Shown piece after piece: positions 11,201 to 14,200 of a stretch of DNA of 64,000 nucleotides. The position numbers are program-made. Where the stretch lies: the NCBI RefSeq assembly GCF_000026545.1, contig NC_011601.1; one strand, given 5' to 3'. Each line of letters opens with the position of its first letter. Positions within the stretch are counted from its first letter, which is position 1. Source of the stretch: Escherichia coli O127:H6 str. E2348/69 (GTDB lineage Bacteria; Pseudomonadota; Gammaproteobacteria; Enterobacterales; Enterobacteriaceae).

Positions 11201-14200
11201 TCACCATCACGAACATGGCGAGTATCAGGATGCCCATGCACGAGCCCATGCCAATGACATTAAACGACGCTTTGATGGTAGAGAGGTCACCAACTGGCAA
11301 ATTTTGCTATTTGGCTTAACCGGTGGCCTTATCCCCTGCCCGGCAGCAATTACCGTGCTGTTGATTTGCATTCAGTTGAAAGCCCTGACACTGGGCGCAA
11401 CACTGGTCGTCAGTTTCAGCCTCGGCCTGGCGTTAACGCTTGTCACCGTAGGCGTTGGCGCAGCAATCAGCGTTCAGCAGGTCGCAAAACGCTGGAGCGG
11501 ATTTAACACTCTCGCTAAACGCGCTCCCTATTTTTCCAGTCTGTTGATTGGCTTAGTTGGTGTGTATATGGGCGTACATGGCTTCATGGGCATAATGCGA
11601 TAACTCAATCCTTTAGGCTTGCATGTTATCTTCAGCCCAGGATGATTCTTAAATCAGCTATTTCCGCTGACTCTCTGCTCGCTAAGGATGCTTTTAGGGC
11701 ATCCTTTCATTTACACTTTTTACGAAATCATGGGATCACTAACAAAATATCGCTTGTCAGTTATATTGTATGGCAGGAAAGATATGCGACTGATATTACA
11801 GATCCCCAAAGTGGAGAGTTTATGACCATTAAAAATAAGATGTTGCTGGGTGCGCTTTTGCTGGTTACCAGTGCCGCCTGGGCCGCACCAGCCACCGCGG
11901 GTTCGACCAATACCTCGGGAATTTCTAAGTATGAGTTAAGCAGTTTCATTGCTGACTTTAAGCATTTCAAACCAGGTGACACCGTCCCAGAGATGTACCG
12001 CACCGATGAGTACAACATTAAGCAGTGGCAGTTACGTAACCTGCCCGCGCCTGATGCCGGGACGCACTGGACCTATATGGGTGGCGCGTACGTGTTGATC
12101 AGCGACACCGACGGTAAAATCATTAAAGCCTACGACGGTGAGATTTTTTATCATCGCTAAAAAAAAGCCCCCTCGGAGAGAGCTGTCTCTTGATCAGATC
12201 TCCTGATCAAGAGACTTCATCACCAGGTAACCCTCAACCATATCCTGAAGTCTGAACCAGCCATCCCACATGACTACCCAACCGGGGCGACCGGTGCGTT
12301 TGCTGTCATGCCATCGCCCCAGTTTCGCCAGTTTCAGACAGGCCCATTTCAGTGTCGGCATCTGTGACGGAAGCGGTTTTCCTTCCAGCTTAACCCACAG
12401 CAGTTTCCACTCTGTCGGCGTCAGTATTTTCTCACAGCTGTCATTTTGTGTTTCTTCACTGATACCGCCCTGCCGCAGGCCCAGCACCCGCACCGCGATA
12501 AACGCCTTGATAACCACCATGCGCTCGAGGTTATCCCGGGTCTGCATTCGCAGCGATTCCACACATGTACCACCACTTTTCCACGCCTTGTGGTATTCCT
12601 CTATCAGCCAGCGTCGCTCGTAATGGCTGACGATACGTCGCGCATCGGCGGCACTCGCCACTTTTTCTGACGTCAGCAGATGCCAGCAGGCGCCGTCCTC
12701 TGCCTGCTCCCGGCAACAGACATACGTGAGCGGGAGCGCCTGGCCGCTGTTGTCGGGATTTTTTATGCTGACTTCGCTGTAACTGATGAACATCCGGGCC
12801 TGGCGGGCTGCCCGCCCGCCTTTTTGCATCACATTCAGCGTGTGGCTTCCCGCGGTTGCCAGGACTTCCGGCAGTTCGAAGAGCTTGCCGGGTGCTTCTT
12901 CCAGCCGGCGATTCTGTGCTGCACGCACCACGAAGCGCTGCCCGTGGCTGACTTTATAATGCAGGTAATGCCAGATATCCGCTTCCCGGTCACAGACAGT
13001 GATTACCCGTTTCTGTATCTCCCCCAGCCGTTCGGCCATGCGCTCCGAAGCCTGCTGCCAGCGGTAACTTTCTTTTTCTTCATAGGGACGTTCTTTTCGC
13101 TGGTGCTTAACACCGTAGGTGTCCGTGGCACGACTCCAGCGCTGCTGTTCGATAAGACCGACTGGCAGGGCGCTGTCGGGGGCGTACATCAGGACAGAGT
13201 GAGCCAGCAGCCCGCGCGTCTTCGGGTTAGTGGTGGTATTCCCCAGGTCATCAGATGCCGTACTGTGACTGAAGTTAATGGTGGTGGTGTCTTCCAGCGC
13301 GAGGAGCAGCGGATGAGCCTCACATGCCCTTACAGTGGCGGTAAATCCGGCTTCGGCAATGGCTTGCGGGGACACAGACGGGTTACGTATCAGGCGGTAC
13401 GCACCTTCAACCTGAGCAGTGGACTGGGATGATTTCACAATAGAAAGACCTGCATGCTGAGCGAGAGAAGAGGCCAGTGACACAAGGCGTCGTGTACGAC
13501 GCGGATCACCGAGACGGGCATGTCCAAACTGCTCGTTAGCCCATGAATAACAATCAGAAAGTACCATAACAGACCCGAAGAAAATGAAATATAAGAGAAG
13601 ATCAACGGGTGAGGAAAAAGTTCAAAAAATCGCTGCCGGGGAGGAAGGAAACTACCGGATGGAAAGAGTCCCCCTAAAGCAGACTGACAGACATCACAAA
13701 TCCCCGGGTGGGGATTTGTGTATAAGAGACAGCGGAGAGAGGGGGGAATGCAGACACCTTAATATTTTTATTATTAGCCACTTGCTCGTCTTGCTTGTTA
13801 TTAGTCGTATTTCACGTTGATTAATGCGGTTGCCTCCAGTGCGCCAGATTTAACTTTGTTTGTATCGTAGACGTAGTAACTGGCCGTTATCGGAATTGAA
13901 ACCGTTGTATCTGTAAGTTTTGACTTTGCCGCAATTTCTTTTAAATTTGTATATCCTTTACTGCTGTTAGTGATATTTAAAAGTGTGACTGGCGTACCAT
14001 TACTTTCAAGAATAAATCCTACGCCATTATCTTCCGCACCTTTCAGGATCGTGTTGCTGTTGGTTAACAAGTCAGAACTTGATAAATACACCTGCATTTT
14101 CCGTGATGTTTGATTTTGTTGACCTAATAAATTTTTACAACGCAGAATAATATCCCCTTTTTTACTATTTATTGTTGTTTTGTTACCTGTGGCTGGTAAT

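What the first reader, a model, noticed from the sequence alone, without database searches (positions are those of the whole stretch)
12161..13760. IS50-like element inserted into the shared rcnB/yehA terminator hairpin
The 1550-bp element (12183..13732) is flanked by a perfect 9-bp direct repeat CGGAGAGAG, the duplication length expected for IS50-group elements, which indicates an intact and probably recent insertion. Removing the element and one repeat copy reconstructs aaaaaaagccccctcggagagaggggggaatg, a GC hairpin with a flanking A/T run that would serve as the bidirectional terminator for convergent rcnB (+) and yehA (-). The insertion separates the two arms, so read-through from rcnB or from the yehDCBA fimbrial operon into the IS, or outward transcription from the IS, becomes possible.
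Basis: seen in the sequence. Interest (0 to 1): 0.55.

Follow-up and report, generated by a model that had tools for sequence, protein, structure and literature searches.

The report
ISEc13 insertion in yehA terminator hairpin
This is an intact copy of ISEc13, a catalogued relative of Tn5/IS50, in E. coli E2348/69; it landed in the rcnB–yehA terminator hairpin because the element strongly prefers 5'-CCCCC–(8–9 bp)–GGGGG-3' palindromes.

Summary
A 1,550-bp element (12183..13732) is flanked by a perfect 9-bp duplication, CGGAGAGAG. Removing it recreates a hairpin allele that exists verbatim in other E. coli genomes.

The window is E. coli E2348/69. RefSeq already annotates the element as "IS4-like element ISEc13". 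It meets every IS4-family and IS50-subgroup criterion, and its transposase is a full-length Tn5 transposase homologue. As an object it is already known and ordinary.

- **Terminator direction.** The hairpin is a canonical intrinsic terminator only for yehA (− strand, U8 tail). The rcnB side has no U tract. A weaker hairpin plus the U8 tail survives at the rcnB-side junction, and no outward promoter is predicted.
- **Target choice.** The insertion is not accidental. Across 90 non-redundant half-sites from several genera, ISEc13 and its close relatives insert at 5'-C-run / 8–9-bp TSD / G-run-3' palindromes (86% vs 5% expected). A matrix trained without this site ranks the rcnB–yehA hairpin first in the 62-kb window. 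The hairpin was hit at least five separate times, in differing orientation, register or haplotype, including in E. whittamii.

I found no paper describing this target motif. I could not consult ISfinder.

The parts
11822..12160 (+). rcnB CDS (Ni/Co efflux accessory protein). The stop codon TAA at 12158-12160 overlaps the A8 tract.
   Evidence: RefSeq annotation of the identical E2348/69 locus (window coordinate = L001 coordinate + 10182).
12159..12174 (.). A8 tract (12159-12166) plus the 5' hairpin arm CCCCCTC (12168-12174) of the original terminator. On the - strand the A8 tract is the U8 tail of the yehA terminator.
   Evidence: The empty alleles L003 and K-12 keep the C5...G5 stem although the loop sequence differs.
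12174..12182 (.). Left copy of the 9-bp target-site duplication, CGGAGAGAG.
12183..13732 (-). ISEc13 (IS4 family, IS50 subgroup), 1,550 bp, intact.
   Evidence: 100% identical to copies annotated as 'IS4-like element ISEc13'. Annotated at this locus in E2348/69. Family criteria are met.
12183..12215 (.). IE-type end (19-bp tip at 12183-12201, three GATC sites) plus its sub-terminal inverted copy. Together they form a perfect 13-bp hairpin (12185-12197 / 12203-12215).
   Evidence: repeat I5.: -21.3 kcal/mol, z = -5.5. GATC at positions 10, 15 and 23.
12194..13567 (-). Transposase gene, 457 aa. Catalytic residues D93, D193 and E323; YREK motif YERRWLIEEYHKAWK starting at residue 316.
13695..13720 (.). 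Sub-terminal OE hairpin (11-bp stem, CACAAATCCCC / GGGGATTTGTG), lying between the OE tip and the transposase start codon.
   Evidence: repeat I15.: -21.5 kcal/mol, z = -5.1. The structure is conserved with different stem sequences in diverged relatives.
13714..13732 (.). OE-type 19-bp end. Its reverse complement, CTGTCTCTTATACACAAAT, matches both the Tn5 OE and the mosaic end at 17 of 19 positions.
   Evidence: The OE and ME sequences come from PMC3347997.
13733..13741 (.). Right copy of the 9-bp target-site duplication, CGGAGAGAG.
13739..13746 (.). 3' hairpin arm (GAGGGGG plus one further G) of the original terminator, now 1.56 kb from its partner.
12166..12184 (-). Residual terminator-like hairpin at the rcnB-side junction (AGCTCTCTCCGAGGGGGCT plus a T run). 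It is built from the IS tip, the TSD and the old arm, and lies downstream of the transposase gene.
   Evidence: 8 pairs, counting G.U pairs.: -10.4 kcal/mol, against -14.1 for the intact hairpin.
13801..14835 (-). yehA CDS (fimbrial-like adhesin, last gene of yehDCBA). Its intrinsic terminator is the hairpin that was split.

Best explanation
The feature is an intact, recently transposed copy of ISEc13, a catalogued IS4-family, IS50-subgroup insertion sequence. It sits in the chromosome of E. coli E2348/69.

Shown: its single Tn5-type DDE transposase and its IE- and OE-like 19-bp ends are present and unbroken. The insertion made a 9-bp staggered-cut duplication (CGGAGAGAG) centred, to within 1 nt, on the dyad of the GC hairpin 18 nt downstream of rcnB and about 60 nt downstream of yehA.

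Shown statistically: the site was chosen by the element's target preference. ISEc13 and its close relatives insert at dyad-symmetric sites of the form 5'-CCCCC / (Y-rich...R-rich) 8-9-bp TSD / GGGGG-3'. The rcnB-yehA hairpin (CCCCC-N9-GGGGGG) is the best such site in the 62-kb window and has been hit repeatedly and independently.

Inferred from homology to Tn5: movement is by cut-and-paste through a dimeric transpososome, with each monomer contacting one C/G run next to its scissile phosphate. That would explain the palindromic motif, the use of both orientations and the +/-1-bp wobble in register.

Inferred from sequence only: such motifs are mostly the stems of intrinsic terminators and extragenic palindromes, so the element usually lands just past gene 3' ends. 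At this locus both coding regions are untouched. yehA loses its adjacent terminator, so yeh transcripts would enter the IS in the transposase sense direction. They would meet the OE hairpin and would finally end at the residual hairpin plus U8 tail at the rcnB-side junction. rcnB never had a canonical U-tailed terminator here.
For: Identity and intactness: named ISEc13; 100% identity; annotated at this locus; Tn5 transposase, E = 6e-84; Pfam domain trio; NF033590, 514 bits against a cutoff of 160; D93/D193/E323, YREK motif, end consensus.

TSD and empty site.

Target motif:
- 90 unique half-sites, C at -14 to -10 in 59-86% of them; 'CCC' lies within -15..-8 in 77/90 against 5.1% expected, p = 2e-85.
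- 26 complete events; TSD of 8 bp (12), 9 bp (13) or 11 bp (1); 21/26 have a perfect stem of at least 5 bp centred on the TSD.
- a leave-one-site-out matrix ranks the rcnB-yehA hairpin first in the window (20.8, against 12.6 for the runner-up and 11.8 for the 99.99th percentile).
- a matrix trained on Escherichia sites places 16 of 18 half-sites from Serratia, Budvicia, Rahnella and Salmonella above the null 99th percentile, p = 5.5e-13.

Recurrent independent hits at this hairpin: the E2348/69 type; L002 in the opposite orientation with an 8-bp TSD; L004 shifted by 2 bp on a distinct haplotype; L005/L019 with a SNP present in both TSD copies and an IS variant differing at 28 nt; L054 in E. 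whittamii. Other hairpins were also hit more than once: agp/yccJ in both orientations (L009/L024) and the ybaY-like/ybaZ site (L010/L021).

Sequence rather than generic structure: background hairpins include 49 with the C run 5', 40 with the G run 5' and 583 mixed, yet all ISEc13 sites have the C run 5'. About a quarter of sites lie inside long ORFs, mostly with weak stems (L007, L008, L025; L012 and L015 have 5-7-bp stems).

Terminator. The K-12 allele keeps the C5-N9-G5 stem with a different loop.
Against: All insertion sites are natural, post-selection sites, not de novo events, so selection could have sharpened the pattern.

Many metagenome loci give only one flank. Some sites are repeated palindromic elements, so the independence of half-sites is imperfect despite de-duplication.

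The E2348/69-type and SCU-115-type occupied alleles cannot be shown to be separate events, because their flanks are identical within +/-650 bp.

The mechanism (cut-and-paste, dimer contacts) is inferred from Tn5 homology and was not tested.

No transcript data were available, so every statement about termination and read-through is a prediction from sequence.
Confidence: 0.86

Rival explanations
1. ISEc13 inserts more or less at random, as Tn5 nearly does. Copies are seen in terminator hairpins only because insertions elsewhere are removed by selection.
For: Sites are natural survivors. About three quarters are intergenic and close to gene 3' ends, which is where neutral insertions would accumulate.
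Against: Selection cannot place the TSD on the hairpin dyad to within +/-1 bp. It cannot impose an exclusive C-run-5' polarity when both polarities exist in the background. It cannot explain motif-bearing insertions inside long ORFs. The same hairpin was hit at least 5 times in different registers and orientations. The matrix singles out this site in 62 kb.
Confidence: 0.04
2. The transposase recognises DNA structure (an extruded cruciform, or a hairpin in single-stranded DNA at forks or terminators) rather than a sequence motif. The C and G runs merely reflect stable stems.
For: 21 of 26 sites have perfect stems of at least 5 bp centred on the TSD. Some stems extend well beyond the C/G runs (for example AACCCTCT/AGAGGGTT, 12 bp). 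TSD length varies (8, 9 or 11 bp) as if it were set by the stem geometry.
Against: All sites have the C run 5' and the G run 3', whereas most natural GC-rich hairpins are mixed or of the opposite polarity. Five of 26 sites have stems of only 3-4 bp but still carry the runs (L007, L008, L014/L013, L017, L025). The Tn5 family acts on duplex targets (established knowledge of the family, not tested here).
Confidence: 0.1
3. The 1.55-kb element is ancestral at this site and was lost by precise excision in most E. coli.
For: Divergent strains (A25 and CP090611, flanks about 2% diverged) carry an IS at the same position, and that IS copy is itself about 1.8% diverged.
Against: 4,655 of 5,426 genomes have the contiguous empty site with a single copy of the 9-mer, including alleles 100% identical to E2348/69's flanks. 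Occupied alleles differ in orientation, register and TSD length. The A25-type TSD carries the local SNP in both copies, so that insertion happened after the SNP arose. Copies within a genome are nearly identical.
Confidence: 0.01
4. The insertion has a real regulatory effect: read-through from rcnAB or yehDCBA into the IS, or IS-driven outward transcription that alters rcnB or yehA expression.
For: The arms of the hairpin are separated. yehA's canonical terminator is no longer adjacent to it. yeh transcription would enter the IS in the transposase sense direction.
Against: No promoter-like site is found in the IS ends. A residual hairpin plus U8 tract remains before rcnB on the - strand. Strong hairpins lie at both IS ends, and terminator-like sites lie on the + strand inside the IS. 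rcnB and yehA converge, so neither lies downstream of the other. From memory, not tested here: yeh is generally poorly expressed in laboratory conditions.
Confidence: 0.2

Closest known systems
IS50 / Tn5 (IS4 family, IS50 subgroup)
   Same: Full-length homologous transposase with the same three Pfam domains. The DDE and YREK motifs are present. The ends begin 5'-CTGTCTCTT. The OE-like tip matches both the Tn5 OE and the mosaic end at 17 of 19 positions. The IE-like tip carries GATC sites. The TSD is 8-9 bp. There is a single ORF that ends inside the IE.
   Different: The target motif differs. Tn5 has the weak consensus AGNTYWRANCT with a strict 9-bp TSD (PMC2577343). ISEc13 has a strong motif of C and G runs outside the TSD, and a TSD of 8 or 9 bp. 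ISEc13 carries perfect 13-bp and 11-bp sub-terminal hairpins at its two ends. It is a solitary multicopy IS (30 places on the E2348/69 chromosome, some possibly partial), not part of a composite transposon.
IS231A (IS4 family)
   Same: A dyad-symmetric GC-run target motif, consistent with the staggered-cut palindromic target model (PMC2577343; PMC2266710).
   Different: The IS231A motif is GGG-N5-CCC. Its polarity is opposite and the runs lie inside an 11-bp TSD. It belongs to a different subgroup (5'-CAT ends, Bacillus hosts).
IS186 (E. coli; lon-promoter hot spot)
   Same: An E. coli IS with a published GC-rich consensus target and a hot spot that is hit repeatedly. The existence of that paper is verified through reference lists. 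The consensus itself, G run - N - C run, is from my memory only.
   Different: The polarity appears opposite and the target is in a promoter, so IS186 insertions are mutagenic (lon). The paper could not be read here.
IS elements that target extragenic palindromes (ISRm22 of the IS4 family; ISPpu9/ISPpu10 and ISPa11 of the IS110 family)
   Same: Insertion into extragenic palindromes acting as 'safe havens'. The Serratia and Budvicia relatives of ISEc13 sit in repeated palindromic elements. The IS4-family precedent ISRm22 is described in PMC1525189.
   Different: ISEc13 recognises a short degenerate motif (C run...G run) shared by unrelated terminators, not one specific REP family. IS110-family elements use bridge-RNA-guided recombinases, which is a different chemistry (titles listed).

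Membership tests
IS4 family (criteria of De Palmenaer et al. 2008, PMC2266710) | DDE triad with spacing D(60-110)D(100-150)E | tested here: met
   D93, D193 and E323, with spacings of 99 and 129 residues. These residues align with the catalytic region of Tn5 transposase.
IS4 family | Y-(2)-R-(3)-E-(6)-K signature that includes the catalytic E | tested here: met
   YERRWLIEEYHKAWK at residues 316-330.
IS4 family | Transposase encoded by a single ORF without a frameshift; TSD of about one helix turn | tested here: met
   A single 457-aa ORF and a 9-bp TSD.
IS50 subgroup | Size 1350-1550 bp; end consensus CW------Y---CA-A--W-; direct repeats of 8-9 bp | tested here: met
   The element is 1,550 bp and both ends fit the consensus. 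TSDs are 8 bp (12 events) or 9 bp (13 events), with one 11-bp exception in L018.
IS50 subgroup | Transposase homologous to Tn5 transposase over its N-terminal DNA-binding, catalytic and C-terminal dimerisation domains | tested here: met
   E = 6e-84 over residues 6-453 against PDB entries 1MUH and 4DM0. Pfam PF14706, PF01609 and PF02281 all match.
ISEc13 (named element) | Near-identity to the reference ISEc13 | tested here: met
   The protein is identical to sequences named 'transposase of ISEc13' or 'ISEc13 transposase'. The DNA is 100% identical to RefSeq features named ISEc13, including the feature at this very locus. The ISfinder reference record itself could not be consulted.
Intrinsic (Rho-independent) terminator, yehA direction (- strand) | GC-rich stem-loop immediately followed by a U tract | tested here: met
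   In the empty allele: a 7-bp stem with 6 GC pairs, a 5-nt loop, then C followed by eight T; -14.1 kcal/mol. K-12 keeps the stem with a different loop. Mapping of actual 3' ends is not possible with these tools.
Bidirectional intrinsic terminator (shared by rcnB and yehA) | A U tract after the hairpin on both strands (A tract upstream and T tract downstream) | tested here: not met
   On the + strand the hairpin is followed by GAAUGCAGACACC, and no + strand terminator is called. The hairpin could still pause or stabilise rcnB transcripts, but that was not tested.
[quoted passage not shown] | A dyad-symmetric motif extending beyond the TSD; both orientations used at one site; hot spots | tested here: met
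   Symmetric half-site profile. The TSD is centred on the dyad. Both orientations occur at rcnB/yehA and at agp/yccJ. Repeated hits are seen.

The most novel reading that the evidence does not exclude
ISEc13 and its close relatives across Enterobacterales may be natural Tn5-family transposons with a strong and so far undescribed target motif, 5'-C(4-5) / 8-9-bp TSD / G(4-5)-3'. This motif steers them into the stems of intrinsic terminators and extragenic palindromes ('safe havens' between convergent genes). Their conserved sub-terminal hairpins may insulate the transposase gene from the read-through that such locations entail. If so, this is a ready-made Tn5 homologue with built-in target selectivity, and the limited set of top-scoring hairpins would predict where new copies appear.
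Probability: 0.4. Interest if true: 0.5.

Novelty: already known. Interest (0 to 1): 0.3.

Why it matters
As an object it matters little. It is one of about 30 ISEc13 places (full or partial copies) on the chromosome of a reference EPEC strain, already annotated, and neither neighbouring gene is interrupted.

The wider pattern has some value:
- It explains why this element sits between convergent genes and why the same hairpins are occupied independently in unrelated strains. Identical insertion sites are therefore not reliable markers of common descent for this IS.
- It offers a natural Tn5 relative with pronounced target selectivity, for comparison with the nearly random Tn5 used in tagmentation and Tn-seq.
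- It predicts a limited set of top-scoring landing sites per genome (only one stands out in this 62-kb window).
- There is a practical point. The first 16 nt of the OE tip equal the Nextera mosaic end, so adapter trimming will clip reads at ISEc13 junctions.

Tried and rejected
- **Literature.** Only 8 incidental mentions of ISEc13 were found, and none concerns targeting. Searches for IS elements that target terminators found no IS4/IS50 example. The IS186 consensus paper (PMC95536) and the E2348/69 genome paper are not held, so the IS186 motif is quoted from memory. One query failed on syntax.
- **Rfam.** Nothing was found in the IS or the hairpin; the only real hit is the TPP riboswitch upstream of rcnR.
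- **Promoter scan.** There is no sigma-70-like site in the IS ends, so outward transcription has no sequence support.
- **Independence of occupied alleles.** I tried to show that the E2348/69-type and SCU-115-type alleles are separate events. Their flanks are identical within +/-650 bp, so this cannot be decided, and I count them as one.
- **Metagenome and genome scans.** Most loci give one flank only, or a relative whose other end differs. Only 26 complete events could be reconstructed.
- **Bidirectional terminator.** Considered and rejected for lack of a + strand U tract.
- **Ancestral element.** Considered and rejected.
- **Other copies.** There is no other copy of the IS in the window.
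Full report
**1. Observation**

The sequence at 12161-13760 is as described. CGGAGAGAG occurs at 12174-12182 and again at 13733-13741, bracketing exactly 1,550 bp (12183..13732). The ends are imperfect inverted repeats, CTGTCTCTTGATCAGATCT... and CTGTCTCTTATACACAAAT.... One 457-aa ORF lies on the - strand at 12194..13567. rcnB ends at 12160 (+ strand) and yehA ends at 13801 (- strand).

**2. Provenance and identity**

The window is 100% identical to E. coli E2348/69 (O127:H6 EPEC). In RefSeq the ORF is annotated at this locus as "IS4-like element ISEc13 family transposase", WP_000244358.1.

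The 1,550-bp element matches 30 places on the E2348/69 chromosome (some may be partial copies). A copy covering at least 80% of it is present in 873 of 5,426 complete E. coli genomes. The protein is the commonest member of a cluster that its sources name "transposase of ISEc13".

Family membership rests on these results:
- The protein aligns over residues 6-453 with Tn5 transposase structures (E = 6e-84).
- It has the Pfam domains Tnp_DNA_bind, DDE_Tnp_1 and Dimer_Tnp_Tn5.
- It hits NCBIfam NF033590 at 514 bits, against a cutoff of 160.
- Measured against the published IS4-family and IS50-subgroup criteria (PMC2266710), it has D93, D193 and E323 with spacings of 99 and 129, the YREK signature, both ends fitting CW------Y---CA-A--W-, a size of 1,550 bp and 8-9-bp duplications.

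"IS50-like" is therefore correct, and the element is a known, named IS.

**3. Empty site and age**

Strain D8 carries exactly the predicted empty allele. A synthetic 609-bp empty allele built from the window's own flanks is found at 100% identity and 100% coverage in other strains. In all, 4,655 of 5,426 genomes have the contiguous unoccupied site. K-12 also has an unoccupied 81-bp spacer.

Only 10 genomes carry the IS here in this orientation and one in the opposite orientation. This copy is identical to copies in other genomes. It differs by 1-3 nt from most of the copies fetched from genome CP148541.1; two copies with 1-bp indels could not be compared without gaps. The insertion is derived and recent.

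**4. The hairpin as a terminator**

In the empty allele a consensus scan calls one terminator, on the - strand only: CCCCCTC-TCTCC-GAGGGGG followed by C and eight T. This is yehA's terminator (-14.1 kcal/mol). On the + strand the same stem (-15.7 kcal/mol) is followed by GAAUGCAGACACC, with no U tract. "Bidirectional" is therefore not supported by the canonical definition.

K-12 has CCCCCTCA-TCA-TGAGGGGG. The loop differs but the C5...G5 stem is the same, which argues that the hairpin is maintained.

After the insertion:
- On the - strand, the IS tip, the TSD and the old arm still form AGCUCUCUCCGAGGGGGCU followed by the U8 tail. This is called terminator-like but is weaker (-10.4 kcal/mol). 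It lies downstream of the transposase gene and ahead of rcnB.
- yeh transcripts would first cross the OE sub-terminal hairpin (11-bp stem, -21.5 kcal/mol). rcnB transcripts would meet the IE hairpin (13-bp stem, -21.3 kcal/mol). Further in, they would meet terminator-like hairpins on the + strand inside the IS, for example 12802-12820 followed by TTTTT.
- No promoter-like site lies in the IS.

Predicted regulatory consequences are therefore modest. None could be measured here.

**5. Why this site: a target motif**

Comparing the occupied alleles showed that they are not one event:
- E2348/69 type: TSD CGGAGAGAG.
- FDAARGOS_144: opposite orientation, 8-bp TSD CGGAGAGA.
- B19374: TSD CTCGGAGAG, shifted by 2 bp, on a distinct flank haplotype.
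- A25 and CP090611: TSD CGAAGAGAG, with the local SNP in both copies, and an IS variant that differs at 28 nt.
- Escherichia whittamii: opposite orientation and yet another register.

That makes at least five independent hits within a 3-bp window.

I then collected other copies through exact-protein look-ups and exact scans for the 33-nt IE tip in species-representative genomes and metagenomes. This gave 135 IE ends, 74 unique flanks and 90 unique half-sites.

The half-site profile is sharp. C occupies positions -14 to -10 from the IS tip (59-86%), pyrimidines occupy -9 to -7, and R-R-G occupies -3 to -1. "CCC" lies in the interval -15..-8 in 77 of 90 half-sites, against 5.1% at random positions (p = 2e-85).

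In 26 fully reconstructed events the TSD is 8 bp (12 events), 9 bp (13) or 11 bp (1). In 21 of 26 there is a perfect stem of at least 5 bp centred on the TSD, and 11 of 26 have an adjacent T or A run, as canonical terminators do.

Two predictive tests support the motif:
- A matrix trained without any rcnB/yehA-derived half-site, scanned over the window with the IS excised, ranks this hairpin first. It scores 20.8 in the CTCGGAGAG register and 16.9 in the observed register, against 12.6 for the runner-up and 11.8 for the 99.99th percentile.
- A matrix trained only on Escherichia sites places 16 of 18 half-sites from Serratia, Budvicia, Rahnella and Salmonella above the null 99th percentile (p = 5.5e-13).

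Other hairpins were also hit more than once: agp/yccJ in both orientations, and the ybaY-like/ybaZ site in divergent strains.

**6. Sequence or structure?**

Perfect GC-rich hairpins in 611 kb of background are mostly of mixed composition (583). The pure classes occur about equally: 49 with the C run 5' and 40 with the G run 5'. Every ISEc13 site has the C run 5'.

About a quarter of sites lie inside long ORFs, and three of those (L007, L008, L025) have stems of only 3-4 bp.

I conclude that the transposase reads a dyad-symmetric sequence motif, as the general staggered-cut palindromic model expects of a dimeric transpososome (PMC2577343). Terminators and extragenic palindromes are hit because their stems carry that motif. 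Purifying selection alone cannot give dyad-centred TSDs and a single polarity.

**7. Comparison with what is known**

The machinery is that of IS50/Tn5. The target motif is not: the Tn5 consensus is AGNTYWRANCT. Within the IS4 family, IS231A has GGG-N5-CCC, with opposite polarity and the runs inside the TSD. IS186 has a published GC-rich consensus; I could verify the citation but not the motif, which I quote from memory. ISRm22 targets REP elements.

I found no paper describing ISEc13's preference. ISfinder could not be consulted.

The OE sub-terminal hairpin is conserved in structure, with different stem sequences, in diverged relatives. In two of them (L120, L132) it is followed by a T run. 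This suggests, by inference only, an insulator against the read-through that a terminator-dwelling IS must face.

**8. Verdict**

The feature is an already known, annotated ISEc13 copy, so novelty is low.

The added value is threefold: the correction that the terminator is canonical only for yehA; the demonstration that part of it survives at one junction; and the evidence that this hairpin is a preferred, repeatedly used ISEc13 target defined by a C-run / 8-9 bp / G-run motif. That last point may be undescribed.

Noticed in passing
window 10192-10288 (- strand): A TPP riboswitch (Rfam RF00059, 71 bits) lies just beyond rcnR. It is also annotated in RefSeq.
   Followed up: no
window 10773-11603 (rcnA); L001-L006: The His-rich tract of RcnA varies in length between alleles (276, 274 or 273 aa). 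This accounts for the 6-10-bp length differences between the loci.
   Followed up: no
L013 and L014 (CP148541.1, 2,303,817-2,308,190 and 2,364,294-2,368,667): Two ISEc13 copies have reciprocally exchanged flanks; the TSDs match only across the two loci. This implies an inversion of about 60 kb by IS-IS recombination.
   Followed up: partly
L027-L034 (E. fergusonii / E. coli plasmids and metagenome contigs): A plasmid-borne ISEc13 variant (protein P0005) has a diverged OE region, and my end-finder called it 1,564 bp. Several copies have non-matching flanks (L031/L033 pair across loci), which suggests recombination between copies.
   Followed up: partly
window 13714-13732 (OE tip): The first 16 nt of the OE tip (CTGTCTCTTATACACA) are identical to the Tn5 mosaic end used in Nextera adapters. 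Adapter trimming will clip reads at ISEc13 OE junctions and may hamper IS mapping.
   Followed up: partly
L020, L013/L014, L061 (11 metagenome loci share this flank), L094; Serratia L037-L041; Budvicia L043-L050: Many insertions lie in repeated palindromic elements. Examples are ...CCCTCACCCTAACCCTCTCC...GGAGAGGGTTAGGGTGAGGG... in Escherichia and Serratia, and ACCCCGTTGAAAAACGGGGT-like repeats in Budvicia. I did not identify which named repeat families these are.
   Followed up: no
window 12647-13064 (+ strand, antisense to the transposase gene): Several terminator-like hairpins lie inside the IS on the strand opposite the transposase gene. The best is 12802-12820, GGCGGGCTGCCCGCCCGCC followed by TTTTT. 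Over 11600-14300 the scan found 8 sites against 2.9 expected from shuffles.
   Followed up: no
L120 and L132 (metagenome relatives, about 1,495-1,498 bp): These relatives share the 33-nt IE tip but have a different OE sub-terminal hairpin (CCCCGGCG-CAAA-CGCCGGGG) followed by TTTTT. That makes it an inward-facing terminator-like structure upstream of the transposase gene.
   Followed up: partly
L018 (CP090611.1, ggt / acetyltransferase intergenic region): This copy has an 11-bp perfect duplication (CACCTACCGGG) instead of 8-9 bp. The C run and G run are further apart at this site.
   Followed up: no
L005 (strain A25) 4660-5540: yehB is annotated as a pseudogene (frameshift and internal stop), and yehA is shorter (334 aa) in the monkey isolate that also carries the IS at this site.
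   Followed up: no
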